This document shows, in pieces, positions 24,485 through 38,930 of a stretch of DNA of 64,000 bases. Below the pieces are notes generated by a model. The model was not told the DNA's origin. It made no database searches and worked only from the letters and a program-made list of their open reading frames with translations. Source of the DNA: Escherichia phage TrudiRoth; the sequence record MZ501109. The stretch is one strand, 5' to 3'. Position 1 is the stretch's first letter; every line of letters starts with the position of its first letter. The position numbers and the translations under genes were made by a program.

Positions 24485-24587
24485 TATTCTGTGTAGAGTT
24501 AAGTAAACCGGTAGCCAACCAGCTATCATTGCTGATATCGAATTCAGTCACAGATACCATTTTTCATTAACAACTGAGGAAATAGAT

Positions 24588-25506: not shown

Positions 25507-25719
25507 AACATCAGAGCAGCGTGATGTACTGCAAAGACCCAAAGTCCGGGGTGGACTTCTTGATTCAAAGGAGCAGGCACTAATTATCATTCTAGCGTGG
25601 TGGAGAGGGGACACCAGCTTGCCGAGGGTAGAAGCTCGTTCGATTCGAGTGAAAGAATGGTTCTCGTAAATCCGCACAAGTGATAGCAGGTTCAAGTCCT
25701 GCCTAGATTGACTTATTAT

Positions 25720-25793: not shown

Positions 25794-26102
25794 AATCTAT
25801 CAAACCAAGCCTGCGCATTCGTGTAACAACTTGTGCGTCTGTAAGGTGATAGTAAACAAGCCACGGAGTTCCGGCCGTTCAACGTGGTAAAATCTTCTGA
25901 ATAACAGGTCGTGGATACCTCTTTGGAGGCTCAACGGAAACGCAGGAGTGTAAGTAAACGAAAGTTTACTTATTATGTAGGTTCCGATAGATCGGCGGGT
26001 CTATTCTGGCATTTAAGAGAAGTCTCGCAAACTTCTTTGTCAGCCGTGGGGTTGGTAGCCTCCAGGTGGCCTACACAATAAGTAAATTTATTAAAAATTA
26101 AT

Positions 26103-26590: not shown

Positions 26591-26755
26591 ATGAAATTAT
26601 TTCGTTTAAAAGTAAGTGATTTACGTTCTAGCAAAGATCGTAAGAAGTATCCACTAGCCCATTACGGTAAAGATGAAAACGAAGTGATGGCGGAATTTGG
26701 TATTAATCACCCTTACTTAAAAGTTTATTCTATTAAGGAAGTCTATGCTAATTAA
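26591..26755 (+). CDS. small hypothetical protein
   Basis: 54-aa ORF (below the track cutoff) translated by hand; RBS AAGGA. Confidence 0.3.
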   Translation: MKLFRLKVSDLRSSKDRKKYPLAHYGKDENEVMAEFGINHPYLKVYSIKEVYAN

Positions 26756-27218
26756 TAAAGTTTTAGCTGCCTTAAACCTTCCTGATAACTTCATTATAGA
26801 TGATAAGCTCATAAGAGCTTATATGAGCAAATATAACGAAATTTCAGGTAAAGAAGGTAAGTTAAAAACTTCAGAGTTTAGATTCTGTTATCGAATGGCA
26901 GCCTTAAATCTCTTAAAATATAAAAGGGAGCATAAAATACCTATAACGGAAGGTTTTGTATATGTAATTGGTAATCCAGCATGGCCAGGCATGTATAAAA
27001 TAGGTATGACTATAGATGTGAATGAGAGGTTAACAAGTTATCAAACTTATTCACCTAATAGAGACTACAAGCTATACCATTTCAGATTTTCGTCGGATAA
27101 AAGACGTACAGAGAAAGAATTACATAATCTTCTTAAAGATTATAGAGTATCTGGAGAATGGTTTGAAGTACCTGTACTAGATGCTTTTAAATTATTAGTA
27201 GAAAAATTGGATTGCTAG
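26745..27218 (+). CDS. T5orf172-domain (GIY-YIG superfamily) protein
   Basis: GFVYVIGNPAWPGMYKIGMTIDVNERL matches the GIY..YIG..R pattern. Confidence 0.65.
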   Translation: MLINKVLAALNLPDNFIIDDKLIRAYMSKYNEISGKEGKLKTSEFRFCYRMAALNLLKYKREHKIPITEGFVYVIGNPAWPGMYKIGMTIDVNERLTSYQTYSPNRDYKLYHFRFSSDKRRTEKELHNLLKDYRVSGEWFEVPVLDAFKLLVEKLDC

Positions 27219-27382: not shown

Positions 27383-27625
27383 TTGCAAATGCAATTATCA
27401 TCTAAAGTTCAAGGTTTCTTCGCACATGCAACAGCAGAATTTGCTATTAGCAAGGGTTGGGATTTTGAGCAAGAACTTTCTGAGTTCTATAAAGATATAG
27501 ATATGAATACGCCATACATGGGACTCTCCACTGGTCAAGAGATCACAGAAGGCGATGTGTTCAAGGCAAGTCAAGGTGAGGTAACACCTAGTTTTGCCGC
27601 TTTTTTGGAGTGGCTTCACAATTAA
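27383..27625 (+). CDS. hypothetical protein
   Basis: 80-aa ORF with RBS AAGGAA. Confidence 0.45.
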   Translation: MQMQLSSKVQGFFAHATAEFAISKGWDFEQELSEFYKDIDMNTPYMGLSTGQEITEGDVFKASQGEVTPSFAAFLEWLHN

Positions 27626-27734
27626 AGAAGAAGCTCCAGATGATGATGTATTTATGCAAAGCATGCACTCTGGGAGTTCTGATATGTTATTTGTTAAAGA
27701 TGTACGACATATCCAAGAAGTGGTAAAAACGCAG

Positions 27735-27763
27735 TTGCTTAATGCTTAATTTCTTGTTATAAT
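27735..27763 (+). promoter_or_regulatory. sigma70-type early promoter driving an ORF-free leader
   Basis: -35 TTGCTT, 17 bp, -10 TATAAT; about 320 nt without an ORF before the next tRNA. Confidence 0.6.
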
Positions 27764-28097
27764 ATTTATATAAATTGATGCGAAAATAGCTGCCTAGATA
27801 CCAGGTGTATGACGTCTACACTAGCAGAGCTACCGAAAAAGAGATCCTCAGGATAAACGTCGTAGCAAAATTAGTCTGGTATCCATTAATTTAGTTCACT
27901 AAGGTATTAGCTCGACCTAGGACTGGCTGCCAAAAAGCACGATCCCTACGATTTGGGAGAAGTTCTAGATTAGTCCACTAGATTCAGCGGCAACTGAATA
28001 GTGTATCGGGTTTGTGAAGAGCAGCTATTCTCTACTGGCTAATGTCTGAGGTTAGTACGCACACCGAGCTAATAGCCTTAGTAAACTTAAAGAATTT

Positions 28098-28173
28098 GGG
28101 CGAATAGTGTCAGCGGGAGCACACCAGACTTGCAAGTCTGGTAGGGAGGGTTCGAGTCTCTCTTTGTCCACCA
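28098..28173 (+). tRNA. tRNA, isotype unresolved (Ala-UGC or Cys-GCA)
   Basis: Acceptor GGGCGAA/UUUGUCC, D-stem GUGU/ACAC, T-arm GAGGG-UUCGAGU-CUCUC, CCA; perfect anticodon stem CAGAC/GUCUG encloses only 6 nt (UUGCAA). Confidence 0.45.
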
Positions 28174-28265: not shown

Positions 28266-28390
28266 AATTTGATGGTCAGAGTAAATTAAACCTACTATCT
28301 CGGTTGAGCTGTTTTAATGGATTCGAATCCCAGCGAGGCGTAACTGCCTGGCGTGATAGAGGCATCATTCCACTAACATTGGAAAAACTA

Positions 28391-28735: not shown

Positions 28736-29251
28736 ATGCTAACACAACAAGAATTAAAATCCGTGTTGTTATATAAACCAGATACTGGAGAGTTTTTCTG
28801 GAAATATAGATCTGATTTAGATAGTCAATGGAATAGTAAATATGCTGGAACTAGGGCAGGATTTATTAATGAACTAGGCTATTGGAAGATAACTCTAGGA
28901 AATACTAGCTGGTTAGCACATCGTCTAGCATTCTTATACATGACTGGGGAAATACCAGATCTAATTGACCACAAGGATCAAGATAAGTCCAATACTAAAT
29001 GGGATAACTTACGAATAGCCACTGTATCACAGAATCAGGCTAATGCTAAATTAAGGGTAGATAATACCTCTGGGTACAAAAATGTAACTTGGCATAAGCA
29101 AAGAAATAAGTGGAAAGTAGAAGTACGTAAAGATGGCAAACTCCATTATGGTGGACTTTTTACAGAACTAGATAAAGCTGTAAATAAAGCTAATAATCTT
29201 AGACGTGAGTTATTCGGGGAATTTGCAGTATATGAAGAGTTTATGGGGTAG
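28736..29251 (+). CDS. HNH homing endonuclease with AP2-like domain
   Basis: Shares AHRLAFLYMTGE, DHKDQDK, NLR and GYKNV motifs with 6460, 39902 and 42058. Confidence 0.7.
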   Translation: MLTQQELKSVLLYKPDTGEFFWKYRSDLDSQWNSKYAGTRAGFINELGYWKITLGNTSWLAHRLAFLYMTGEIPDLIDHKDQDKSNTKWDNLRIATVSQNQANAKLRVDNTSGYKNVTWHKQRNKWKVEVRKDGKLHYGGLFTELDKAVNKANNLRRELFGEFAVYEEFMG

Positions 29252-29341
29252 GTCAATCCAACGGCTGGCGCTGGACTCCGACTTGAAATCGGTTGATCGT
29301 AGTGATACGGTGTAAGGGTTCGATCCCCTTACCTACCTCCA
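29247..29341 (+). tRNA. tRNA-Ser (anticodon UGA)
   Basis: Acceptor GGUAGGU/ACCUACC, anticodon loop CUUGAAA, long variable arm, T-arm AAGGG-UUCGAUC-CCCUU, CCA; 5' end overlaps the HNH gene stop. Confidence 0.7.
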
Positions 29342-29361
29342 ATTAACTATAAGGAATCCTT

Positions 29362-29535
29362 ATGAGCAAAACAGCTACTGTAACAATGAAGGATGGTACA
29401 AAATTTAAAGCATGTCTTCATGAAACAGATAATGGATGGAAGGCTTATTTGCCACACCTAGATTCCACTGGGTATGGAATGACCCAACGTGAAGCTATTG
29501 TTGATGCTTTAAATGAGGCTTCCGCTGGTTTATAA
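29362..29535 (+). CDS. small hypothetical protein
   Basis: 57-aa ORF translated by hand; RBS AAGGAA. Confidence 0.35.
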   Translation: MSKTATVTMKDGTKFKACLHETDNGWKAYLPHLDSTGYGMTQREAIVDALNEASAGL

Positions 29536-29794
29536 AAATTCTTGGAATATGCCGGAATTGGTAGACGGGACTGCCGAATAGGTTTACTAGGAACATCCAC
29601 TCCTAGAAATATACCTTAAAAGCGGTTGAGTTAAATGGTATAACTCATGAAGGTTCAAGTCCTTCTATTCCTTGATACATCAATGGCTCAAAGTGTAACG
29701 GTGCTATTTGATGCTCTTGGCAAGACTTCCCCGACATGCGTTCGGGAGTAAGCTGCTAAGACTAGAGTAGAAGAGTTTCAACAAGACAACGATA

Positions 29795-29869
29795 GCTCTT
29801 AAAGCATTGCTGGCGATGCAGTTGCCTTGTAAGCATCTGAACCGGGTTCGATTCCTAGTGGGAGCACCA
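29795..29869 (+). tRNA. tRNA-Thr (anticodon UGU)
   Basis: Acceptor GCUCUUA/UGGGAGC (two G-U pairs), D-stem GCAU/AUGC, anticodon loop CUUGUAA, T-loop UUCGAUU, CCA. Confidence 0.65.
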
Positions 29870-29885
29870 AAATTAAAAAATTCAT

Positions 29886-29914
29886 TTGCCTTCTCTCTTA
29901 TTTCTTGTTATTAT
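29886..29914 (+). promoter_or_regulatory. sigma70-type early promoter
   Basis: -35 TTGCCT, 17 bp, -10 TATTAT. Confidence 0.5.
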
Positions 29915-29944
29915 ATTTATATAAATTAATGAGAGGGAAACCAA

Positions 29945-30238
29945 ATGAAACGTTATCTTTCTGTTATGTTCCAAACTGGTGGTCAACGCTATACTTATGA
30001 ATTTCCATCTTCTTGGAAGATCAAAGAAGGTGATCAAGTAGTAGTGTTAACACCGCGTGATGGTTTCAAGGTAGTAACGGTTAAGCAAGTATTTCCAAAA
30101 GATCACGAACCATCTAAGGCTATTCAGTACAAGATGATTCATGGTCTGGTACGAAAAGTACCTAGAACAGAAGTCGAAGTAGATAAAACTGGGGAAGCTA
30201 AATACCAGTATACCTCTTACTTAGACGAGTTGTTATAA
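29945..30238 (+). CDS. hypothetical protein
   Basis: 97 aa behind promoter 29886-29914. Confidence 0.5.
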   Translation: MKRYLSVMFQTGGQRYTYEFPSSWKIKEGDQVVVLTPRDGFKVVTVKQVFPKDHEPSKAIQYKMIHGLVRKVPRTEVEVDKTGEAKYQYTSYLDELL

Positions 30239-30444
30239 TGGGAATTACTTTCACAGAAAAGATTATGGGCAATGGTGTTATGATCATTACCGCATGGGAT
30301 GGTAATCAGTGGTGTAGTGTTTCAGGTATTAAGCCTGAAGAACAAACACTAGAAAATATCTCAAAGATTAAGCGAAGAATGGCAGAACGTGCACGACTTC
30401 CAGGTGCGCCTAGAAATGGTAAACGTTCTGCAATTAAATGTTAA
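30238..30444 (+). CDS. hypothetical protein
   Basis: 68 aa, start-coupled. Confidence 0.45.
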   Translation: MGITFTEKIMGNGVMIITAWDGNQWCSVSGIKPEEQTLENISKIKRRMAERARLPGAPRNGKRSAIKC

Positions 30445-30445
30445 T

Positions 30446-30522
30446 GCTTCGGTAGCTTAGCGATCTAAAGCACTCGGCTGATAACCGAGAGATCGGGGGT
30501 TTAAATCCCTCCCGGAGTACCA
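30446..30522 (+). tRNA. tRNA-Ile (anticodon GAU) with UUUAAAU T-loop
   Basis: Acceptor GCUUCGG/CCGGAGU, D-stem GCUU/AAGC, anticodon stem CUCGG/CCGAG with loop CUGAUAA, T-arm GGGGG-UUUAAAU-CCCUC, CCA. Confidence 0.7.
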
Positions 30523-30558
30523 AATTTAGGAAGTAAGACTATGCGTCCAGGAAAGTTT

Positions 30559-30572
30559 AAAAAAAAAAAAAA
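30559..30572 (+). repeat. A14 homopolymer tract
   Basis: 14 consecutive A between tRNA-Ile and the third CAU tRNA, inside a 15-codon ORF (MRPGKFKKKKKLIGL). Confidence 0.9.
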
Positions 30573-30626
30573 GCTAATTGGTCTAAAGAGTATAAAGAAT
30601 ATTTACTTAGTCTAGTAAAACATAAT

Positions 30627-30702
30627 AGTTAGTTGGCAGAGTGGTTATGCACCTCCTTCATACGGAGCGACTACAGTGGTTCAAATCCACTACTAACTAC
30701 CA
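30627..30702 (+). tRNA. tRNA-Met/Ile2 (anticodon CAU)
   Basis: Acceptor AGUUAGU/ACUAACU, anticodon loop UUCAUAC, T-arm AGUGG-UUCAAAU-CCACU, CCA. Confidence 0.7.
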
Positions 30703-30740
30703 TAAAAAAGAGCTAGAGATAGCTAAATATAGGAGCAAGT

Positions 30741-30935
30741 GTGTTAACTGTTAAAATAATGTCTGCAAATGGTGGTGAAGAAATTCATGATGGTAATAGC
30801 GTAGGATTTAATCCTAAAAATAAGAGTATTCATGTCTCGGGATTAGATCAAGCCATATTCCTAAAAGAGGATGAAGTCGCCTACGTTATGAATCAGAACG
30901 GTAAAACAGTTTCTGTTTACTACGGTAAGCTGTAA
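30741..30935 (+). CDS. hypothetical protein
   Basis: 64 aa, GTG start after AGGAG. Confidence 0.4.
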   Translation: MLTVKIMSANGGEEIHDGNSVGFNPKNKSIHVSGLDQAIFLKEDEVAYVMNQNGKTVSVYYGKL

Positions 30936-31302
30936 AGAACAGAGGATCAGGTCATTGTACCAGATCCTGCTGAGAAGAGAGTCCACATTCTATAAATGGC
31001 CGGGCGTGACAGCAGGAAGTAGACTGCAACTCCATGCTATCCAGGAGTATAAATGTAGAAGCTAAGACTTTAGATAGCCATTGTCTTAGCGTGAGCAATC
31101 ACGTAGTTGCAACAGACCTGGAAGATCGCAACGTTAAAATCAAAGCTCCTGTGCTTATTAAACTGAATGGGACTATCAATCCACAAGCCGGACTACGAGC
31201 GATTATCGGGTATTCACTTAATAAGCAAGCCTGCCTTCCAGTTTTTATCTTGCTTCTGGGTTAACAAAAAGCTGAGCCAAATTCTAACATCAGGGAGATC
31301 TA

Positions 31303-31671
31303 ATGAAAGCATATCAAAGTCTTAAGTCTGGCGTAATTAACATTGTTCATAACAATCAGATCATTCAACTATATTCTAAAGATGGTGAACTTAAACAGAA
31401 AGTTCTAGTCGAAGATCTAGAAGGTATCACACCTCACTTTGACCCTGAGGCCTTTCGCATTGTAGATGTGGAAGTGGTTCCTCAAGTCGAGGGTGGTCAG
31501 CACCTAAATGTCAATGTGTTAAGCCGTGATCAGCTTTTGGATGCACAGAAACATCCTGAAAAATATCCTCAGTTGACCATCCGTGTCTCTGGCTATGCTG
31601 TTCGATTTAACGCATTGACGCGTGAACAACAGAACGACGTTATTAGTCGTACATTTACTCAGGCGATATAA
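31303..31671 (+). CDS. grcA: autonomous glycyl-radical cofactor GrcA/YfiD-like
   Basis: [12 protein letters not shown]...[37 protein letters not shown] closely matches the C-terminal glycyl-radical domain of GrcA/PFL; RVSGY radical site. Confidence 0.8.
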
Positions 31672-31752
31672 TGGGGTTTGGATACGATTTCTCCCAGCTA
31701 CGCAAGGTAGTCGAGCAAACTCCATTTATCTCCCAAGTTTTAGGAGAAATGT

Positions 31753-32052
31753 GTGGATCGAGCATTAAGACGCCATCACCGGCAACGTGTGAAAAACAAT
31801 CGCAAAAAGTATTGGACAGTCTTCCCACATGAAGAAAGTCCTAAGCGGTTAGGCATTATCACTACCACTCCTTGCATCTGTTCTTGTTGGATGTGTGGGA
31901 ATCCTCGCAAATACTATAAGAATAGTAAAGCAGGCATGAAAATCTCGGAGATTAAAAAGATGGATGCAATGATTATGGGCATCACCTTTACAGGTGGTAT
32001 CTCTGATGAATTCGACGGTTTTGTAACTCAGGATATTGTCGAAATTATCTAA
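31753..32052 (+). CDS. hypothetical protein
   Basis: 99 aa, GTG start; terminator follows. Confidence 0.35.
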   Translation: MDRALRRHHRQRVKNNRKKYWTVFPHEESPKRLGIITTTPCICSCWMCGNPRKYYKNSKAGMKISEIKKMDAMIMGITFTGGISDEFDGFVTQDIVEII

Positions 32053-32062
32053 TTAATAATAA

Positions 32063-32098
32063 ACCCCAGCTATTGAATAGGTAGTCTGGGGTTTTCTT
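32063..32098 (+). terminator. rho-independent terminator
   Basis: Stem ACCCCAG/CUGGGGU followed by UUUUCUU. Confidence 0.65.
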
Positions 32099-32116
32099 GT
32101 ATGTAGGATTTTCGAA

Positions 32117-32302
32117 ATGAAAATTTTTAAAGTGAACTATAGCGGCCTGTGGTTAGGTGGTACAGCTATTGTCGTTGCAGAAACTGCAGAAGAAGCAATC
32201 GAACTGACTAGAAACCATAGAAGTTCTATAGAATTCGAGGATGTGACAGTAGAAGAACTCCCGAGCAGTGGGGTAGTATACAACAACAACGGAGATTACT
32301 GA
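32117..32302 (+). CDS. hypothetical protein
   Basis: 61-aa ORF. Confidence 0.4.
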   Translation: MKIFKVNYSGLWLGGTAIVVAETAEEAIELTRNHRSSIEFEDVTVEELPSSGVVYNNNGDY

Positions 32303-32360
32303 TGTTATATTTTGAAGTTCGCCCACATTAAGTTAATTTAAAAGACTTAATGGAGGTAAT

Positions 32361-32756
32361 ATGAGCCGTACATATCGTAAACAATCTGGTGATCGTCACT
32401 GGCGTGATGCACATCGTTCTACTTATAATTTTCATAGCACTAATATCCGTATTCCGTATACCTACACGGATAGGGATGGTAAGCAGTGGAAGTATTATCA
32501 AGTTCGATCCAATGAAGCATGGGCTAAAACTTGGGATGAAATTGAGAAGGAGATTCAGGAAAATATCATCCGTAACGAGAAGAAAGATGGGCACTGGTGG
32601 GATTCTGTTAGTAGGAATGTTAAGTGGCATTCTAACAAAATGGTTCGTCAGGGAAACCGTCGCGAACTTCATCGTGTGATGAAAGATCCAGAAAATTACG
32701 ACTATAATCGCGATCATGATCTGCGTAAGCGTGGGTTATGGTGGTGCTACGACTAA
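32361..32756 (+). CDS. hypothetical protein
   Basis: 131 aa, Trp/His/Arg-rich, RBS GGAGG. Confidence 0.5.
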   Translation: MSRTYRKQSGDRHWRDAHRSTYNFHSTNIRIPYTYTDRDGKQWKYYQVRSNEAWAKTWDEIEKEIQENIIRNEKKDGHWWDSVSRNVKWHSNKMVRQGNRRELHRVMKDPENYDYNRDHDLRKRGLWWCYD

Positions 32757-32773
32757 TTTCGTAAATAATTCAT

Positions 32774-32802
32774 TTGCTAAAACCCTCTCCTTTTGATATA
32801 AT
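32774..32802 (+). promoter_or_regulatory. sigma70-type early promoter
   Basis: -35 TTGCTA, 17 bp, -10 TATAAT. Confidence 0.65.
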
Positions 32803-32832
32803 ATTTATATAAATTGATGAGAGGGCTTTGAA

Positions 32833-33105
32833 ATGAAAGAAGCAGAAATTAATGAAATGGCTAGAATATTCATCGTTTCCTATATGCAAGGCAGTTGCAA
32901 TAGTTTATTCGAGTCTGCTATAGTATTTCAGGAAATGTTAGCCGAGAAAGGCGTACATATGGAAGATACTGAAATTGAAGATCTTCTAATGGAAACTTGT
33001 AGTAGTGCTGAAGTCTTCCAGTGTGGTAACTGTAATTGGTGGTGTCCAGAGCATGATCGTTCTGAAGAAGGTTCCTACTGTTCCGATTGTGAAGGAGAAG
33101 AATAA
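32833..33105 (+). CDS. Cys-rich small protein
   Basis: 90 aa with CGNCNWWC...CSDC behind promoter 32774-32802. Confidence 0.5.
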   Translation: MKEAEINEMARIFIVSYMQGSCNSLFESAIVFQEMLAEKGVHMEDTEIEDLLMETCSSAEVFQCGNCNWWCPEHDRSEEGSYCSDCEGEE

Positions 33106-33404
33106 TGAATAAGTTTATTATTGCTCTAGTAATTTCAGCAGTTAGTTTCGGTTCTCTGGCATCTACCAAAGTTTCTATGAAAAATGGTAATGTTAAAGTT
33201 CAGCAGAATGGCATTACCACCGAATATGGTAAAGTACGTGATGTAAAAGAACGTAATGGCAAAGTAGAAATATATACTAATAAAAACTTCTCTACTCCGG
33301 CTGTTACTGTTAGTAAACGTGGTGAAATCACTACTCAACGTACTAATAGTTCTGATTCTTTTACTTGCCGTTATGACTGCGGCTTTGAAGGTGAAGATGA
33401 GTAA
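33105..33404 (+). CDS. secreted protein
   Basis: 99 aa with signal peptide MNKFIIALVISAVSFGSLAS. Confidence 0.5.
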   Translation: MNKFIIALVISAVSFGSLASTKVSMKNGNVKVQQNGITTEYGKVRDVKERNGKVEIYTNKNFSTPAVTVSKRGEITTQRTNSSDSFTCRYDCGFEGEDE

Positions 33405-33816
33405 TTTAGACCCTAGAATTAAACATGCAGTCGAAGAAATCCAAGATCAGATAGATGAGGACTTCACTGTTTGGTCAAGATTTGGCAATGGTGAAGGCTG
33501 TCAGCTTTATAGCATGAAAATGGGCATCTCGATTGAACTTAGTATCAATCCAGAGGGCAACGTAGAAGCCCAACCCATGTTCAGTGTTCCAGGCTTCTCT
33601 GGATTTGTTATGGGCATGAAACTATGTCTACCAAATAAACATCTTTACCGTGTTATCTGTCAGCTAGAAACAATTAAACATTTCTTGCCAGAAGATAACA
33701 TTAATGACTACTATCATGAAGTTGTAGCAGCTTACATGATGAAAGAACGCAAACGTCGGAGAGAAGAACGTGAAAGAGCTAAATCTCAACAGTCTAGTAC
33801 AGATTCCAGCAACTGA
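33397..33816 (+). CDS. hypothetical protein
   Basis: ATG 33397 overlaps the previous stop; track ORF opens at 33319. Confidence 0.45.
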   Translation: MSNLDPRIKHAVEEIQDQIDEDFTVWSRFGNGEGCQLYSMKMGISIELSINPEGNVEAQPMFSVPGFSGFVMGMKLCLPNKHLYRVICQLETIKHFLPEDNINDYYHEVVAAYMMKERKRRREERERAKSQQSSTDSSN

Positions 33817-34063
33817 TGCTGTACTAGAATATCTTAGAAAGGATCATGTTAAATTCTGGACTGATTATAGCTACGAGCATAACTCAGATTTAGCTACTGA
33901 TTTTGCAAATAAACGAATAGCTGAGTATACAGATCCTAGAGTTAAGAATGGTGTGATTACTTTACCACTTTGGGATGTGATGGAAAAGTTTGGTAAAGAT
34001 TTGTGCCCAGGTTGTGTACCATTGTTTGTTACTATTCTAATTGATGAAAAGGATCTTAAATGA
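33770..34063 (+). CDS. hypothetical protein
   Basis: 97 aa, GTG start overlapping the upstream ORF. Confidence 0.35.
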   Translation: MKELNLNSLVQIPATDAVLEYLRKDHVKFWTDYSYEHNSDLATDFANKRIAEYTDPRVKNGVITLPLWDVMEKFGKDLCPGCVPLFVTILIDEKDLK

Positions 34064-34344
34064 TTATCTCTCCATTTGCTTTGTGGTTTGTTATTGGTGC
34101 AGTTGTCGCGATTTACAGCCTGATTGATGATCTGTATATCTCTAAAAATAAAGATGTTATTCTTTATGTTATAAACAAATATCGTCCACCAGAATTAGCA
34201 GAATTTGACAATGAAAAGATGTTCAAATTCATTATGTCAGGTATGCTTATCATGGACACCTTGTTCGGGCCAGTAGCTACTTACTTCTTCTTCCGTAAAA
34301 CTCGTAAGATGAAAAAGTTTCGCGCTGAAATGCAGAGCAAGTAA
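34060..34344 (+). CDS. membrane protein
   Basis: 94 aa with two hydrophobic segments. Confidence 0.45.
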   Translation: MIISPFALWFVIGAVVAIYSLIDDLYISKNKDVILYVINKYRPPELAEFDNEKMFKFIMSGMLIMDTLFGPVATYFFFRKTRKMKKFRAEMQSK

Positions 34345-34461
34345 AGAACTCGCGTAGGACCGAGTTGCGTCACCTGCAACTGTTACGGATAAGGGAGTCG
34401 TGCCCCTTTAGTGCGGTAAGTGGTGAGTTGGTCGCTGACCTCAACTTTAACTGGAGATATC

Positions 34462-34809
34462 ATGAGCTTTATTTTATTCAGTGTAGCAGCATGGTTTATT
34501 ATTGGTTTAGGCTATGCTATTGCAGTTATTCGTCATCTGGATGAATATTCTGCTGAATGGTTTATTAAGTACCTACGTTTAGACGATCGAGAACACGAGT
34601 TCGACAGTGCTGAGGAAAGACAGGCTGTCCAGTCAATGACTCCCAAAGAATGCTTGCTTTACATGCGTGTAATTGGTTTCTTTGGACTGTTGGTAGTGGG
34701 GCCGCTAGGTCTTACTATTGCTCCCTACAAAGAAGTTGTTGACGACATTAAACTATGGAGAACCGCTGGATCGCTACGTCGTGCTAGAGAATTAAGTAAA
34801 CAAGAGTGA
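34462..34809 (+). CDS. membrane protein
   Basis: ATG 34462 after GGAGAT; track ORF opens at 34420. Confidence 0.45.
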   Translation: MSFILFSVAAWFIIGLGYAIAVIRHLDEYSAEWFIKYLRLDDREHEFDSAEERQAVQSMTPKECLLYMRVIGFFGLLVVGPLGLTIAPYKEVVDDIKLWRTAGSLRRARELSKQE

Positions 34810-34844
34810 TGATAATCACCTCCTAGCAAGAATAATAATGACAA

Positions 34845-34880
34845 AGCCCAGCCTGCAATTTTGCGACTGGGCTATTTTTG
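34845..34880 (+). terminator. rho-independent terminator
   Basis: Stem AGCCCAG/CUGGGCU followed by AUUUUUG. Confidence 0.6.
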
Positions 34881-34894
34881 TAATAAAATTTCAG

Positions 34895-34923
34895 TTGCTC
34901 AGATGCCACAAGTATTGTATAAT
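34895..34923 (+). promoter_or_regulatory. sigma70-type early promoter
   Basis: -35 TTGCTC, 17 bp, -10 TATAAT. Confidence 0.6.
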
Positions 34924-34954
34924 ATGTTTATAGATTGAGGCAAAAGGATAATTT

Positions 34955-35653
34955 ATGAGAATCATTTCAAAGTTCAATGATGTATACGATTTGCAGAATA
35001 GTTTATTTGATCCAGATCGTGTCTGGGAGCGTAAAACTGAAGAGCTGCGAGTAAAAGTAACTGACGATGTAGAAAAGAATATCGTTCATAATCGTCAGGT
35101 GTTTCGTGAGGGTTCCTTATCCTTCCGTGGTGACTTCGAATACTCAGTAAATCCACTGTTTATTGCAGGCGAAGTTTACTGGTTACATGAACTGTCCTGC
35201 TGGCATCCAGCATTCAGTTTCAAAACGTTCAACATCGATGCTGTGTTCGATAAAATGGAAGAAATGGGATTACATGCCCGTTCTTACTTACTAGATAAGA
35301 ATCGTGGTGATGTTCGTGAAACCATGCGAGATATGTTGGTTGAAGCAAAACCTAAAGCAGAACGTATCTTATCTGAACTGCGCGTACCAATTGCATATGT
35401 GAAAGGTATTAAGAAGAACGATAACGATGATGTTCGTAACTTCGTAATTCAGACAAACATTCGTTTCCATCAGTCAGGTATTCCGTGGCAGGAAATTGAA
35501 AGTAACTTATACCGTTTACACCAAGTTCTCGAACAGTATATCTTCGGTGTACTAGGAACTGGTGAGCCTGATATGATTACCGTATCAGATAAAGACAGGT
35601 TAGCAGCACATGGATTTGATACAAAAACTTCTTTCAGGAATATGGCAAGGTAA
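34955..35653 (+). CDS. hypothetical protein
   Basis: 232 aa behind promoter 34895-34923. Confidence 0.5.
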   Translation: MRIISKFNDVYDLQNSLFDPDRVWERKTEELRVKVTDDVEKNIVHNRQVFREGSLSFRGDFEYSVNPLFIAGEVYWLHELSCWHPAFSFKTFNIDAVFDKMEEMGLHARSYLLDKNRGDVRETMRDMLVEAKPKAERILSELRVPIAYVKGIKKNDNDDVRNFVIQTNIRFHQSGIPWQEIESNLYRLHQVLEQYIFGVLGTGEPDMITVSDKDRLAAHGFDTKTSFRNMAR

Positions 35654-36059
35654 GTGGTATATCCTGGGAGCTGGTCTTGCGATAGGTATCGGATTCGGTG
35701 CTTATCACTTAGTTAATAAGGTTGAGACTCTAGCAGGTGATCTTGCAGTTGCGACTAAAAAGATCTCCACTCTAGAGACTTCTCTTAATAAAGTGAAAAC
35801 TGAGAGTGAACTTCGTGAGACTCGAATGAACCAGTATTTCACAATGAATAATATTTCGCAAGCAGATCTAGACAAAAAGATTAAGCAGTTAGATAAAGCT
35901 CTTAGTCGTCAAGATGTTATCGCTGCAAAGCCTGGATTGGTAACATTAATTGCTAAAAAGCAGAATAAAGAGTTCGAGGAAAGATTAGCGTGTTTAACTG
36001 GAAACTTGGAGTACTGCTCGCAGCCGCAATCACAATCACAGGCTGTGCAGAAGAAATAA
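35610..36059 (+). CDS. i-spanin-like protein (putative)
   Basis: N-terminal TM segment (WYILGAGLAIGIGFGAY) followed by coiled coil. Confidence 0.45.
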   Translation: MDLIQKLLSGIWQGKWYILGAGLAIGIGFGAYHLVNKVETLAGDLAVATKKISTLETSLNKVKTESELRETRMNQYFTMNNISQADLDKKIKQLDKALSRQDVIAAKPGLVTLIAKKQNKEFEERLACLTGNLEYCSQPQSQSQAVQKK

Positions 36060-36343
36060 AACCGGAGCCATCCCATGAGTTAAAGCAAGCTCATATAGAT
36101 TGGCCTAAAGGACTTCAGCCGTGTAGCTTTGATTTCAAATTCGAAAAGAAATTAGCTACAAATGGTGAAGATGGCGTAGTAGTTGTTGTACCTTACAAAG
36201 ATTGGAATGCAAAAGCAAAATGCGAGGAAGCAGTTTACTCTTACATTTCACGACTGACCGGTATGGTTTGCTTCTATCGTCAAGATTTACAAGAAAAACG
36301 TTGCTTAGTTTATTATCCACCCATTACAAATAGGAAAGATTAA
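35990..36343 (+). CDS. o-spanin-like lipoprotein (putative)
   Basis: Signal peptide with lipobox ITGC; start lies in the +1 frame inside the end of the i-spanin-like ORF. Confidence 0.5.
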   Translation: MFNWKLGVLLAAAITITGCAEEIKPEPSHELKQAHIDWPKGLQPCSFDFKFEKKLATNGEDGVVVVVPYKDWNAKAKCEEAVYSYISRLTGMVCFYRQDLQEKRCLVYYPPITNRKD

Positions 36344-37095
36344 TGTCAGTATTAGTCGGTTTACACGGTGAGGCTGGTGCGGGAAAAGATACCGTTGCAG
36401 AATTAATGATTGACTGGTGTAATGACACGTTCCCAACGTGTTTATCCCGTCGTTACAGTTTTGCTAAACCCGTTTACGAACTTGCATCCGTAATCCTCGG
36501 GGTAACTCCAGAGTTTCTGGGAGAGCGCAGGGGGAAAGAGATTGACCAATGGTTTACAGTCACACAATCTCAATTGGAGCGAGCTAGAGACATATGGTTT
36601 AAGTATGGTATCGATAAGTTTGAGGACTTCTCGTACGTTTGGCCTATTTTTGAAGGAAAATACCTTGATCCTCAGCAGTTAATTGGGCAAGCTGATGATG
36701 CGCTGTATAGCGTGTTTATCTCCCCAAGAAAAATGCTACAGCTTGTAGGTACTGAGTTAGGAAGGCAGCTGGTGCATGAACGCATTTGGCTCATAATTCT
36801 GGAGCAATCCATCGATAAAGACGACCCAGACGTCGCAATCGTTACCGATGTGCGTTTTCCCAATGAGGGAGAGCTAATCATGGAAACCAATACTCTAGAT
36901 ATGGATTCCATACTTATTAAGGTTGAATCTGGTATTACTAATAAGTATCGCATCGAGACAGATCATCCGTCTGAAAGCGGTATTCCTGAAAAATACATTT
37001 CTCATAAATTTGAGAATACCTTCAACGGACTTGATGCACTTCGTACCGATGTGTACCACTTCTGTGACTTAGAGCTAGAACCACTAGTTGGATAA
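36343..37095 (+). CDS. dnk: deoxynucleoside monophosphate kinase
   Basis: P-loop GLHGEAGAGKDT; 250 aa as for T5 Dnk. Confidence 0.7.
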   Translation: MSVLVGLHGEAGAGKDTVAELMIDWCNDTFPTCLSRRYSFAKPVYELASVILGVTPEFLGERRGKEIDQWFTVTQSQLERARDIWFKYGIDKFEDFSYVWPIFEGKYLDPQQLIGQADDALYSVFISPRKMLQLVGTELGRQLVHERIWLIILEQSIDKDDPDVAIVTDVRFPNEGELIMETNTLDMDSILIKVESGITNKYRIETDHPSESGIPEKYISHKFENTFNGLDALRTDVYHFCDLELEPLVG

Positions 37096-37107
37096 TTAAG
37101 GATCACT

Positions 37108-37707
37108 ATGACTAACAAGAAAGAAGAAAAGACTAACCTGTTTCACACTGTTCGCCAATCTAATGAGTATACCTTTTTCTTTGACGAAGAGTTAGGCTCA
37201 CCGGATGAGTATCGTGATCTATCAATGATACTGATGCAGGCTGGTGAAGATGATGAAATTAATCTGATGATTAATGGGCCTGGTGGTTACGTTGATACTG
37301 CTGCACAGCTATCTAACCTAATAGCTAACTGTCGTGGAACGGTTATTGGGCACCTGCTCGGTCCTAGTGCTTCTGCTTACTGCACAATCTTCCTATCTTG
37401 CCACGGTTGGGTTGTACATCCACATGCTACGCTTATGGGACATACGTTCTCTGGCGGATTCTGCGAGAAAGGTCAAGAAATCAAGAAAGCCTATGAATCC
37501 TACAACCAGTTTGTAGAAGATATGATGCTAGATATTTACTTTCCGTTCTTCTCTGTCGACGAAATCGAGGACATGGTAAAAGAGAATAAGAATATCTATC
37601 TCAACAGCAAAGAAATCAATAAGCGTATTGAAATTTTGGCGAATTATCGTAAAGAGCAGTGTAGTAAAGCTCAAGCCCCACATCCAGAAGAACATGGAGA
37701 AGTGTAA
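37108..37707 (+). CDS. ClpP-family serine peptidase-like protein
   Basis: INLMINGPGGYVDTAAQL resembles ClpP IYLYINSPGG; candidate catalytic Ser in GPSASAY and His in HPHATLMGH. Confidence 0.6.
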   Translation: MTNKKEEKTNLFHTVRQSNEYTFFFDEELGSPDEYRDLSMILMQAGEDDEINLMINGPGGYVDTAAQLSNLIANCRGTVIGHLLGPSASAYCTIFLSCHGWVVHPHATLMGHTFSGGFCEKGQEIKKAYESYNQFVEDMMLDIYFPFFSVDEIEDMVKENKNIYLNSKEINKRIEILANYRKEQCSKAQAPHPEEHGEV

Positions 37708-37715
37708 GTAGTTTT

Positions 37716-37750
37716 AAGCCAGAGTTTAACGACTCTGGCTTTTCTTTTGC
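37716..37750 (+). terminator. rho-independent terminator after the ClpP-like gene
   Basis: 10-bp stem AAGCCAGAGU/ACUCUGGCUU followed by UUUCUUUUG. Confidence 0.75.
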
Positions 37751-37863
37751 CTAAAATTCTTCTTGACAACGACAAAAAATTGTGCTCCAGAAGTGATCTT
37801 AAAAAACACATTGTAATTTTACTCTAGAATTAGTATAATGGTAGTGGTTAGAGGAGGTTACAA

Positions 37864-38520
37864 GTGGAAAAGTTTATACAACTATTAACGATACTGCTAC
37901 AAGAAGCGAAAGATCCAGCTTCACTACTAAAACGTCTGCTAACTATCTTAGTTGCTGTCATTATTTTCTTGTTTGTAAGTAACACTAGCGAGGTGATGTC
38001 ATTTTTAAAGACTTTCTCCACGTCTTCGGTTTTACAGGATGTTCAAACCCAAAGGATAGATAACTTTCCTAATGTAGCACGAGAAAAGAGTATGGTTCTT
38101 TTCTCCCAGACTGGTGCGGATGCCGTTTTTGTAGTAAAGTATAAACCAGATGCTATAAATGATTATTCAAACATTATTGCATGGGAAAGCAATGCGCAAT
38201 TGGATAGGGCTGACTTGGCCGATAAAGCAGTAAATAAGACGTCTGAACTTTATAGACGTCACCTGGAAGGCTTTAACTACGCTGCGGATTTAAGTGTAAA
38301 AGTAAATAAATATACGGGGTCAAATATACCAGCGTTTAAGAACATTACTTTTAATTACGTCTACACTTGTCCATATTTCAACCTAAATAATATCTATGCT
38401 GGATACATAGGTATTGCATGGAAGGATAAACCCGTAGATACAGCTGATTCGGAACAATTTAATGAGTACTTAGCAAAGCTCTGTTCCCCACAACGGAGAT
38501 CATTAGGTAGATCTATATGA
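37864..38520 (+). CDS. holin-like membrane protein (putative)
   Basis: 218 aa with one strong TM segment, immediately upstream of and overlapping the endolysin gene; GTG start after GGAGG. Confidence 0.5.
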   Translation: MEKFIQLLTILLQEAKDPASLLKRLLTILVAVIIFLFVSNTSEVMSFLKTFSTSSVLQDVQTQRIDNFPNVAREKSMVLFSQTGADAVFVVKYKPDAINDYSNIIAWESNAQLDRADLADKAVNKTSELYRRHLEGFNYAADLSVKVNKYTGSNIPAFKNITFNYVYTCPYFNLNNIYAGYIGIAWKDKPVDTADSEQFNEYLAKLCSPQRRSLGRSI

Positions 38521-38930
38521 GTTTTAAATTTGGTAAAAATAGCGAAAAACAATTAGCAACTGTTAAGCCCGAGCTACAGAAGGTAGCTCGTAGGGCTTTA
38601 GAATTATCTCCATATGATTTCATAATCGTACAGGGTATTCGTACAGTAGCACAAAGTGCCCAAAACATTGCTAATGGTACTTCATTTTTGAAAGACCCTA
38701 GCAAGAGTAAGCATGTAACTGGAGACGCTATCGATTTTGCACCATATATTAATGGAAAGATTGATTGGAAAGATCTGGAAGCATTTTGGGCTGTTAAGAA
38801 GGCTTTTGAACAAGCCGGTAAGGAACTTGGTGTCAAACTTCGTTTTGGTGCCGACTGGAATAGTTCTGGTGATTATCATGATGAGATCGATCGTGGTACT
38901 TACGACGGTGGTCACGTAGAATTAGTCTGA
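38517..38930 (+). CDS. lys: endolysin, L-alanyl-D-glutamate peptidase (T5-type)
   Basis: 137 aa with zinc-site motifs HVTGDAIDF and DGGHVEL; matches the T5 endolysin as I recall it. Confidence 0.85.
   Translation: MSFKFGKNSEKQLATVKPELQKVARRALELSPYDFIIVQGIRTVAQSAQNIANGTSFLKDPSKSKHVTGDAIDFAPYINGKIDWKDLEAFWAVKKAFEQAGKELGVKLRFGADWNSSGDYHDEIDRGTYDGGHVELV

What the first reader, a model, noticed from the sequence alone, without database searches (positions are those of the whole stretch)
27776..28097. About 320-nt ORF-free leader between a canonical promoter and the next tRNA
Promoter 27735-27763 is followed by 320 nt with no ORF and with distant complementary pairs (GATACCAG near 27797 with CTGGTATC near 27877). 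Likely a processed precursor leader or an independent small RNA.
Basis: seen in the sequence. Interest (0 to 1): 0.4.

Follow-up and report, generated by a model that had tools for sequence, protein, structure and literature searches.

The report
Phage T5 stable RNA "RNA2H" gene
The ORF-free stretch is the local copy of RNA2H, a small stable RNA of T5-like phages that was annotated long ago but has no known function; it is made from a strong phage promoter together with the tRNAs, has a conserved knotted fold, and here carries an extra folded 5' domain.

Summary
A T5-type early promoter (-35 TTGCTT 27735-27740, -10 TATAAT 27758-27763) is followed by about 328 nt with no ORF of 30 aa or more, up to tRNA-Ala at 28098. 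The GATACCAG/CTGGTATC pair is at 27797-27804 and 27876-27883.

The window comes from a T5-like phage (Tequintavirus). The stretch has two parts:
- **RNA2H core (27894-28086):** the orthologue of "RNA2H", annotated as a "stable RNA with unknown functions" in T5, DT57C and Salmonella phage 5.
- **5' domain (27771-27893):** It occurs in 83 phage records. T5 has a 20-nt hairpin at this place and Sugarlandvirus has nothing.

Covariation across 39 distinct sequences from three genera supports a 21-bp closing stem, a loop-to-strand pseudoknot, a four-way junction and a variable arm. About 93% of cells pair, against roughly 35% when partners are slid. Rfam has no matching family.

The annotated RNA ends fall in an invariant box of the closing stem with RNase III-like geometry, which predicts a mature RNA at 27905-28077. 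Viable T5 deletion mutants and one natural deletion show the RNA is dispensable in the laboratory. Its function remains unknown. The gene is already known; the structural detail may be new.

The parts
27735..27763 (+). T5-type early promoter, homologue of P13b: -35 TTGCTT 27735-27740, 17-bp spacer, -10 TATAAT 27758-27763. The inferred transcription start is near 27770.
   Evidence: Sequence. 98% identical to the annotated promoter P13b of phage 5. Invariant in the alignments. The motif occurs 11 times in the window against 0.02 expected. The start site is inferred from the spacing in T5 promoter PN25 (own knowledge).
27771..27893 (+). P0, the 5' leader domain, a three-way junction. Outer stem 27771-27780 with 27884-27893. 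Hairpin 27805-27809 with 27817-27821. Hairpin 27829-27836 with 27860-27866, with an inner stem 27844-27847 with 27851-27854.
   Evidence: RNAalifold on 7 sequences; one pair shows C-G / U-A / U-G. Present in 83 phage records, one place each, all at least 90% identical. Replaced by a 20-nt GAAA hairpin in T5 and DT57C, and absent in Sugarlandvirus.
27894..27914 (+). P1 5' strand (GTTCACTAAGGTATTAGCTCG) of the 21-bp closing stem.
   Evidence: 21 pairs, 6 with changes on both sides, 96-98% of cells paired.
28065..28086 (+). P1 3' strand (CGAGCTAATAGCCTTAGTAAAC), with one bulged G at 28075.
   Evidence: TAAGG and GCCTTA are invariant in all 39 sequences.
27905..28077 (+). Predicted mature RNA2H (173 nt), by transfer of the annotated ends from T5 and phage 5.
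   Evidence: The phage 5 rna2H start maps to 27905. T5 rna2H is at locus L003 1214-1385. The ends lie in P1 and leave a 2-nt 3' overhang (read from the sequence; inference).
27920..27925 (+). Pseudoknot strand in the junction after P1 (GGACUG). It pairs with the P3 loop at 27971-27976.
   Evidence: 6 pairs, 4 with changes on both sides, 100% paired, including a change within Sugarlandvirus.
27971..27976 (+). Pseudoknot strand in the P3 loop (UAGUCC).
27932..28013 (+). Four-way-junction subdomain. It is closed by Px (AAA 27932-27934 with UUU 28011-28013; GCAC 27937-27940 with GUGU 28001-28004). P2 is 27943-27946 with 27955-27958; it is 4 bp here and about 45 nt in other phages. P3 is 27964-27968 with 27978-27982. 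P4 is 27983-27987 with 27994-27998.
   Evidence: P2 and P3 have 3-4 pairs each with changes on both sides. Px shows only one-sided, consistent changes. P4 forms in both groups but is one column out of register in Sugarlandvirus.
28014..28064 (+). P5 arm, 'window-type' allele, with the conserved loop UGGCUAAU at 28036-28043. T5, DT57C and phage 5 carry a different allele at this place.
   Evidence: Covariation in P5. This allele is shared with Sugarlandvirus at about 77% identity.
28078..28097 (+). Spacer between the predicted RNA2H 3' end and tRNA-Ala. It would be the 5' leader of the tRNA precursor.
   Evidence: Sequence; tRNA start. No terminator-like site on the + strand.
28098..28173 (+). 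tRNA-Ala(UGC) homologue, co-transcribed downstream. It has an extra G in the anticodon loop.

Best explanation
The segment is the orthologue of the T5 stable RNA gene rna2H, placed at the head of a tRNA transcription unit. The steps below are marked as shown or inferred.

1. Host sigma-70 RNA polymerase starts at a strong T5-type early promoter, near 27770 (inferred from homology to annotated promoters).
2. The transcript folds into a 5' leader domain, P0 (27771-27893), and then the RNA2H core. The core is a 21-bp closing stem P1 around a three-way junction. One branch is a four-way junction (P2-P4) whose P3 loop pairs with the strand after P1, forming a pseudoknot. The other branch is the P5 arm. 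This fold is shown by covariation.
3. RNase III most likely cuts P1 at the invariant AAGG/GCCUU box. That would release a 173-nt RNA (27905-28077) with a 10-bp terminal stem and a 2-nt 3' overhang. RNase P then makes the 5' end of tRNA-Ala at 28098. This step is inferred from the ends annotated in T5, DT57C and phage 5.
4. The excised RNA persists as a stable RNA and acts in trans, most likely by binding a protein. It is an accessory factor that is not needed on laboratory hosts. This last step is a guess; the function is unknown.
For: Identity: the best match is Tequintavirus SelmaRatti at 97%. The region aligns to features annotated 'rna2H, stable RNA with unknown functions' in T5 AY543070, DT57C and phage 5 AJ604531, with the same promoter upstream and tRNA-Ala downstream. 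The covariance model scores the window at 210 bits.

Structure: RNAalifold on a plain MAFFT alignment found P1, the pseudoknot helix, P2 and P5 on its own, with 17 pairs showing compensatory change. For the full model, 92.9% of cells pair and 22 pairs change on both sides, against 31-38% and 1-3 pairs when partners are slid. On 39 sequences the figures are 92.7% and 27 pairs, against 2-10.

Strand: the promoter direction points to the + strand. Frequent G-U pairs (for example 32-106, 45-139 and 159-202) would be C-A mismatches on the other strand.

Independent unit: the promoter-plus-RNA cassette is kept while both flanks vary. Upstream can be tRNA-Val, tRNA-Lys, tRNA-Pro, tRNA-Glu or an ORF. 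Downstream can be three kinds of tRNA-Ala or a non-tRNA sequence.

Processing: the annotated 5' end pairs with the fourth base from the 3' end, with the G bulged and CC overhanging. Both ends lie in the only sequence-invariant part of P1.

Dispensable: T5Mos (deletion 30661-38625) and T5-123 (deletion 29191-32442) are viable, and both deletions span rna2H at 31808-31979 (PMC11464382; coordinates). One natural phage has lost 126 nt of the interior.
Against: No expression or end-mapping data were available here. 'Stable RNA' and its ends come from GenBank annotation, and I could not read the experimental basis. RNase III cleavage is inferred from geometry only; RNase P or RNase E with trimming could give similar ends. 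Most compensatory changes separate two clades, Markadamsvirinae and Sugarlandvirus, so the number of independent events is smaller than the number of cells. Px has no change on both sides. P3 and the pseudoknot leave 0-1 nt between them, so they may not form fully at the same time. Nothing here speaks to what the RNA does.
Confidence: 0.82

Rival explanations
1. The segment is purely a cis-acting leader. It exists to stabilise, insulate or help process the downstream tRNA precursor, for example through a 5' structure that blocks RNase E or an RNase III entry site. The excised piece would then be a by-product with no function of its own.
For: It always lies directly behind a strong promoter at the start of a transcription unit, and usually in front of tRNA-Ala. 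There is no + strand terminator-like site between it and the tRNA. The P0 domain pairs the extreme 5' end.
Against: A pseudoknot, a four-way junction and invariant junction sequences are kept across three genera, which is more than a leader needs. The cassette is kept when the downstream gene is not a tRNA (loci L019, L008, L022). It is annotated as a stable RNA species. Sugarlandvirus has no P0 yet keeps the core.
Confidence: 0.12
2. RNA2H is a tRNA-like decoy or anti-defence RNA. It would bind or divert a host tRNA-targeting nuclease or a tRNA-handling enzyme, like the T5 tRNA cluster's known role against PARIS.
For: It lies inside the tRNA cluster. T5 tRNA-Lys from that cluster neutralises PARIS (PMC11464382). 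The P2-P4 subdomain has four helices in cloverleaf order. The predicted 3' end is stem-G-C-C, one A short of a tRNA-like NCCA end (read from the sequence). Peripheral modules are swapped between phages. It is dispensable in the laboratory.
Against: The tRNA covariance model gives no hit in 27776-28097, even at E up to 10. No T-loop or D-loop motifs are present. Of the three T5 fragments tested in the PARIS study, the two other than the tRNA-Pro/fMet/Lys/Val fragment had no effect. The P3 loop is occupied by the pseudoknot.
Confidence: 0.05
3. The region encodes a small protein or leader peptide.
For: A 29-aa GTG ORF lies at 27805-27894. Some records annotate short 'hypothetical proteins' over the homologous region, on either strand.
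Against: The ORF lies inside P0 stems, and a 1-nt indel breaks it in phage 5. P0 is absent from most homologues. The core varies by indels of 22-26 nt and by compensatory pairs, not by codon-like change. The annotated ORFs differ in strand and place between records.
Confidence: 0.01

Closest known systems
RNA2H (rna2H) of phage T5 (AY543070, 31808-31979), DT57C, DT571/2 and Salmonella phage 5 (AJ604531)
   Same: Orthologous sequence: 86% identity to T5 over 205 nt, and 97% to phage 5 over the first 113 nt. Same promoter (P13b), same position before tRNA-Ala, same fold.
   Different: The window carries the other allele of the P5 arm, with loop UGGCUAAU, which it shares with Epseptimavirus and Sugarlandvirus phages. 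It also carries the long 5' domain P0, which phage 5 has too but leaves unannotated, and which T5 and DT57C lack.
Other stable RNAs of the T5 tRNA region (RNA I, RNA III, RNA IV; tRNA-like RNA1, RNA2, RNA3)
   Same: Small non-coding RNAs of unknown function placed among the tRNA genes. Homologues of five of them are in this window.
   Different: No sequence or model similarity to RNA2H. The covariance model finds one copy per genome and blastn finds no paralogue.
Phage T4 species 1 and species 2 RNAs (rnaC, rnaD) in the T4 tRNA cluster (own knowledge, not tested here)
   Same: Stable RNAs co-transcribed with phage tRNAs, cut out of the precursor, dispensable, with function still unknown after decades.
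   Different: Different phage family. No homology was tested or expected. As far as I recall, the T4 RNAs are matured along the tRNA pathway (RNase P) and not from a long RNase III-type stem.
RNase III excision of rRNAs from rrn operon transcripts (established E. coli pathway)
   Same: The 5' and 3' flanks of the mature RNA pair into a stem of about 20 bp. That stem would be cut with a 2-nt 3' overhang, with tRNAs on the same transcript.
   Different: The excised RNA is about 173 nt and is not ribosomal. Cleavage here is inferred, not shown.
GOLLD and ROOL large non-coding RNAs found next to tRNAs in phages (Rfam families)
   Same: Structured phage RNAs of unknown function located by tRNA genes.
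   Different: They are three to five times larger. No Rfam family matched the window or four homologues, even at permissive thresholds.

Membership tests
T5 RNA2H (annotated stable RNA of Tequintavirus) | Sequence homology to an annotated rna2H feature | tested here: met
   blastn: 86.5% to T5 rna2H. 97.3% to phage 5 rna2H over 113 nt, starting at window 27905. Alignments.
T5 RNA2H (annotated stable RNA of Tequintavirus) | Same genomic setting: directly after promoter P13b and before tRNA-Ala and tRNA-Leu | tested here: met
   Annotation tables of T5, DT57C and phage 5 compared with the window's tRNAs and promoter.
T5 RNA2H (annotated stable RNA of Tequintavirus) | Shared secondary structure | tested here: met
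   About 93% of cells paired, and 22-27 pairs with changes on both sides, against 1-10 when partners are slid. RNAalifold agrees.
T5 RNA2H (annotated stable RNA of Tequintavirus) | Accumulates as a discrete stable RNA in infected cells | not testable with these tools
   This rests on the GenBank notes only. No paper describing RNA2H was found in the searchable library.
RNase III substrate | Double-stranded stem of about two helical turns (20 bp or more) | tested here: met
   P1 has 21 pairs, with one bulged G and one C-A mismatch in Tequintavirus; all positions pair in Sugarlandvirus.
RNase III substrate | Staggered cuts on both strands leaving a 2-nt 3' overhang | tested here: inconclusive
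   The annotated ends in T5 (L003 1214 and 1385) fit this geometry within P1. Whether those ends were measured, and whether RNase III makes them, could not be checked.
tRNA (Rfam RF00005) | Match to the tRNA covariance model | tested here: not met
   No tRNA hit within 27776-28097 at E up to 10. ARAGORN finds none there.
Any described RNA family (Rfam 15, 4227 models), including riboswitches, ribozymes, tmRNA, 6S, Y RNA-like, GOLLD and ROOL | Match at or near the family's gathering score | tested here: not met
   Only tRNAs reach threshold in the window. Nothing credible appears in the region at E up to 10, nor in the T5, Sugarlandvirus and Epseptimavirus homologues at E up to 5.
Sigma-70 promoter of the T5 early type | -35 and -10 hexamers with 16-18 bp spacing | tested here: met
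   TATAAT is 6 of 6, the spacer is 17 bp, and -35 TTGCTT is 3 of 6 to TTGACA. It fell below the generic scan's cut-off. It is homologous to annotated promoters, and the motif repeats 11 times against 0.02 expected.

The most novel reading that the evidence does not exclude
RNA2H is not a passive by-product but a trans-acting RNA with a specific partner. Its core (21-bp stem, pseudoknot, four-way junction, invariant junction strands CCAAAAARCAC and AGUGUAUYG..UUUG) would bind a host or phage protein or a small ligand. It could serve, for example, as a decoy against a tRNA-directed or RNA-directed defence system. The swapped outer modules (P0 absent, short or long; P2 from 4 bp to 45 nt; two P5 alleles) would then reflect adaptation to different hosts. 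This would give a first function to the class of stable RNAs encoded in phage tRNA clusters.
Probability: 0.2. Interest if true: 0.7.

Novelty: already known. Interest (0 to 1): 0.3.

Why it matters
The stable RNAs encoded next to phage tRNA genes (several in T5, two in T4) have had no assigned function for about forty years. Meanwhile the tRNA clusters themselves have recently been shown to counter bacterial defences. This analysis does not reveal a function.

It does show that RNA2H has a conserved, pseudoknotted fold under selection in three genera of T5-like phages. It also shows that RNA2H behaves as a self-contained promoter-plus-RNA cassette, that it is probably released by a cut in a long stem, and that it has interchangeable outer modules. 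It has no Rfam family, so the alignment and model could seed one. They also give precise targets for deletion and compensatory-mutation experiments. For the genome scan itself, the finding is an already annotated gene type, not a discovery.

Tried and rejected
- **Rfam:** searches of the window (gathering threshold), of the region (E up to 10) and of four homologues (E up to 5) returned only tRNAs and chance-level hits.
- **Literature:** searches for RNA2H, T5 stable RNAs, T5 transcriptomes and Ksenzenko found no paper describing RNA2H's function or structure. One search failed on a term that was too short.
- **IMG/VR pattern scans:** these returned only known T5-like isolates.
- **Metagenome scan:** Only 2 of the 120 stretches were true homologues.
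- **Paralogues:** none in the window by blastn or by the covariance model. An nhmmer run failed on a format option.
- **More distant relative:** no homologue in Proteus phage PM135 (Novosibvirus). There, tRNA-Glu abuts tRNA-Ala directly. Other Demerecviridae subfamilies were not checked.
- **Alternative helix:** pairing between the strand after P1 (GCUGC) and the 5' strand of P5, which the single-sequence MFE fold suggested, is not supported. It pairs in 64% of cells, no better than shuffles.
- **Shared 9-mer:** GAATAGTGT occurs in both RNA2H and the T5-type tRNA-Ala. I judged this to be chance, because it is absent in Sugarlandvirus.
- **Protein-coding reading and a DNA-level element:** both rejected. 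Indels break the ORFs, and the many G-U pairs are specific to one strand.

Full report
**1. What is in the sequence**

The window carries 23 tRNA genes between about 16.6 and 30.7 kb. By blastn it is a T5-like phage (Demerecviridae, Tequintavirus). The closest record is Escherichia phage SelmaRatti, at about 97%.

The generic sigma-70 scan missed it because the -35 hexamer matches TTGACA at only 3 of 6 positions. It is 98% identical to the promoter annotated as P13b in Salmonella phage 5 and corresponds to P13b of T5. Its -10 plus initial-transcript motif occurs 11 times in the window against 0.02 expected by chance. It is therefore one of a family of repeated phage promoters. By analogy with T5 promoter PN25 (own knowledge) I place the start of transcription near 27770.

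From there to tRNA-Ala at 28098 there is no ORF of 30 aa or more on either strand apart from one that overlaps the tRNA. The region holds 6 perfect 8-mer complements against 1.0 +/- 1.3 in shuffles. The whole leader folds with z = -2.6.

**2. What it is**

Three curated GenBank records annotate the homologous stretch as 'rna2H, stable RNA with unknown functions', 172 nt long. They are T5 AY543070, DT57C KM979354 and phage 5 AJ604531. In each, the feature lies between promoter P13b and tRNA-Ala. The start of the phage 5 feature maps to window position 27905.

An alignment of the window with these records and with 30-odd further loci shows the leader has two parts.

- **The core (27894-28086).** It is present in about 500 phage records. 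All belong to Markadamsvirinae (Tequintavirus, Epseptimavirus) or, at about 77% identity over part of its length, to Sugarlandvirus phages of Klebsiella.
- **The 5' part (27771-27893).** It is present in only 83 records, once each, always at least 90% identical and always at this place. T5 and DT57C have a 20-nt hairpin with a GAAA loop there. Sugarlandvirus has nothing, and its core begins about 4 nt after the inferred start.

No Rfam family matches the window, the region at permissive thresholds, or four divergent homologues.

**3. The fold**

I derived a model by eye from the alignments and then tested it.

- RNAalifold on a plain MAFFT alignment of 16 sequences from three genera independently returned four elements. 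These were the closing stem P1, a helix between the strand after P1 and the loop of P3, the base of P2, and P5. 17 of its 45 pairs showed compensatory change.
- For the full model, with that helix written as a pseudoknot, 92.9% of cells form standard pairs and 22 pairs change on both sides. Sliding every partner by 1-3 columns gives 31-38% and 1-3 pairs.
- On 39 distinct sequences aligned to a covariance model, the figures are 92.7% and 27 pairs, against 2-10 when slid. That alignment leans towards the model; the MAFFT one does not.

The elements, with their support:

- **P1:** 21 pairs (27894-27914 with 28065-28086), 6 of them compensatory between clades.
- **Pseudoknot:** 6 pairs (27920-27925 with 27971-27976), 4 compensatory. 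One is a change within Sugarlandvirus (AGUC/GACU against AGCC/GGCU).
- **P2:** 4 bp in the window, but a branched arm of about 45 nt in Epseptimavirus and Sugarlandvirus.
- **P3:** changes on both sides appear in Salmonella phage bobsandoy (TCTGAT/ATCAGA against TCTAG/CTAGA) and between genera.
- **P4:** forms in both clades, but is one column out of register because the loop is 6 or 7 nt.
- **Px (AAA/UUU and RCAC/GUGU):** closes the P2-P4 junction. It shows only one-sided, consistent changes, so it is the weakest element.
- **P5:** comes in two alleles. The window, SelmaRatti, Epseptimavirus and Sugarlandvirus share one, with the loop UGGCUAAU at 28036-28043. T5, DT57C, BF23 and phage 5 have another. 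Each allele has its own covariation.

Many G-U pairs would be C-A on the other strand, so the RNA is read from the + strand, in line with the promoter. An alternative helix suggested by the single-sequence fold was tested and not supported.

Three caveats apply:
- Most compensatory changes separate two clades, so independent events are fewer than the counts suggest.
- P3 and the pseudoknot leave 0-1 nt between them. They may form a kissing-type loop helix, or they may alternate.
- P0 has little variation to test. One pair is C-G, U-A or U-G.

**4. How it is probably made**

In all 39 sequences the only sequence-invariant part of P1 is TAAGG on the 5' strand and GCCTTA on the 3' strand, while the pairs on either side covary. 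The ends annotated in T5 (locus L003 1214 and 1385) fall exactly there.

The first base (U) pairs with the fourth base from the 3' end, the next G is bulged, and CC overhangs. That is the 2-nt 3' overhang RNase III leaves in a stem of about two turns (established property of the enzyme). I therefore infer that RNase III excises the RNA. The window product would be 27905-28077 (173 nt), with a 10-bp terminal stem. A leader fragment of about 135 nt carrying P0 would be left behind. A tRNA precursor would also remain, whose 20-nt 5' leader (28078-28097) RNase P removes.

No terminator-like site on the + strand separates the RNA from the tRNAs. I could not check whether the annotated ends were measured.

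**5. What it does**

This is not known. Four things can be said.

- **It behaves as a self-contained cassette.** Promoter and RNA stay together while the upstream neighbour is tRNA-Val, tRNA-Lys, tRNA-Pro, tRNA-Glu or an ORF. The downstream neighbour is one of three tRNA-Ala types or a non-tRNA sequence. This argues against a leader tailored to one tRNA.
- **There is one copy per genome**, and no paralogue in the window.
- **It is dispensable in the laboratory.** The viable mutants T5Mos and T5-123 both lack the region that holds rna2H (PMC11464382, with coordinates). One natural phage lost 126 nt of the interior between two GCTCGA repeats.
- **It is absent from Proteus phage PM135**, where tRNA-Glu directly abuts tRNA-Ala.

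I rank the explanations as follows. A trans-acting, protein-binding accessory RNA is the most likely. A pure cis-acting leader comes second. A tRNA-like decoy is third: the four-helix order and the GCC 3' end are suggestive. However, the tRNA model does not match, and the T5 fragments other than the tRNA-Pro/fMet/Lys/Val one had no effect against PARIS. A coding reading is rejected.

**6. Comparison with what is known, and novelty**

The window element passes every testable criterion for membership of RNA2H: sequence, synteny and fold. Expression could not be tested.

The gene type has been in GenBank since the T5, BF23 and phage 5 tRNA-region records were deposited, so the finding is already known. 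The covariation-backed fold with its pseudoknot, the modular variation (P0, P2, P5) and the RNase III reading of the ends may be new. I found none of these in the searchable literature, but older papers in subscription journals were not searchable.

The closest analogues outside the family are the other T5 tRNA-region RNAs and the T4 species 1 and 2 RNAs (own knowledge). Their functions are likewise unknown.

**7. Verdict**

The feature is real, ordinary for this phage group and already annotated in relatives. Interest is modest (0.3). It lies in the unexplained function of a well-folded phage RNA and in the absence of an Rfam family.

Noticed in passing
window 28098-28173: The tRNA-Ala(UGC) homologue has an extra G in the anticodon loop (CTTGCAAGTCTGG against CTTGCAA-TCTGG in T5 and SelmaRatti). 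This gives an 8-nt loop, and ARAGORN calls it tRNA-??? with anticodon tgca. It could be a sequencing error, an inactivating mutation or a frameshift-suppressor-like variant.
   Followed up: partly
window 27383-27749 (T-run near 27599-27604): The ORF upstream of the promoter is split into an 80-aa and a 51-aa ORF by one extra T in a run of T, compared with the intact 119-aa gene of SelmaRatti (bas34_0092; no Pfam domain). Together with the tRNA-Ala insertion, that makes two single-base insertions within about 550 nt. This may point to indel errors in the source assembly.
   Followed up: partly
window 24487-24559, 25588-25712, 25977-26077, 29541-29684, 29685-29779: Homologues of five other 'stable RNA / tRNA-like RNA with unknown functions' features annotated in phage 5 and T5: RNA3, RNA2, RNA IV, RNA1 and RNA I (84-98% identity). 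No homologue of RNA III was found.
   Followed up: partly
window 14863, 22799, 23885, 27758, 29909, 32797, 34918, 39459, 40778, 43798 (+) and 62160 (-): There are eleven copies of the -10 plus initial-transcript motif TATAATATTTATATAAATTGA (up to 3 mismatches) against 0.02 expected. This is a family of repeated T5-type early promoters. The copy at 32797 is identical to the one in front of RNA2H.
   Followed up: partly
L025 2238-2303 (IMG/VR contig of 108,483 bp): A natural variant in which the interior of RNA2H (126 nt) is deleted between two GCTCGA repeats, one at the end of the P1 5' strand and one in the P5 loop. Only the closing stem and part of P5 remain.
   Followed up: yes
window 27785-27793 with 28021-28029: There is a 9-bp perfect complement (AATAGCTGC / GCAGCTATT) between the internal loop of the 5' domain P0 and the 5' strand of P5. 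By eye, the other six P0-carrying sequences keep weaker versions (about 6-8 bp with G-U pairs; one sequence has a mismatch). It could be an alternative pairing or chance.
   Followed up: partly
window 26745-27218 and 28736-29251: The flanking ORFs look like mobile homing-type genes. One is a T5orf172/MUG113-domain protein (157 aa, E = 3e-18). The other is an HNH_3 endonuclease (171 aa, E = 4e-13). Both fit the mosaic make-up of the tRNA region.
   Followed up: partly
window 28266-28345: The stretch after tRNA-Leu contains a T-arm-like GGATTCGAATCC but is not called as a tRNA. It may be a tRNA remnant.
   Followed up: no
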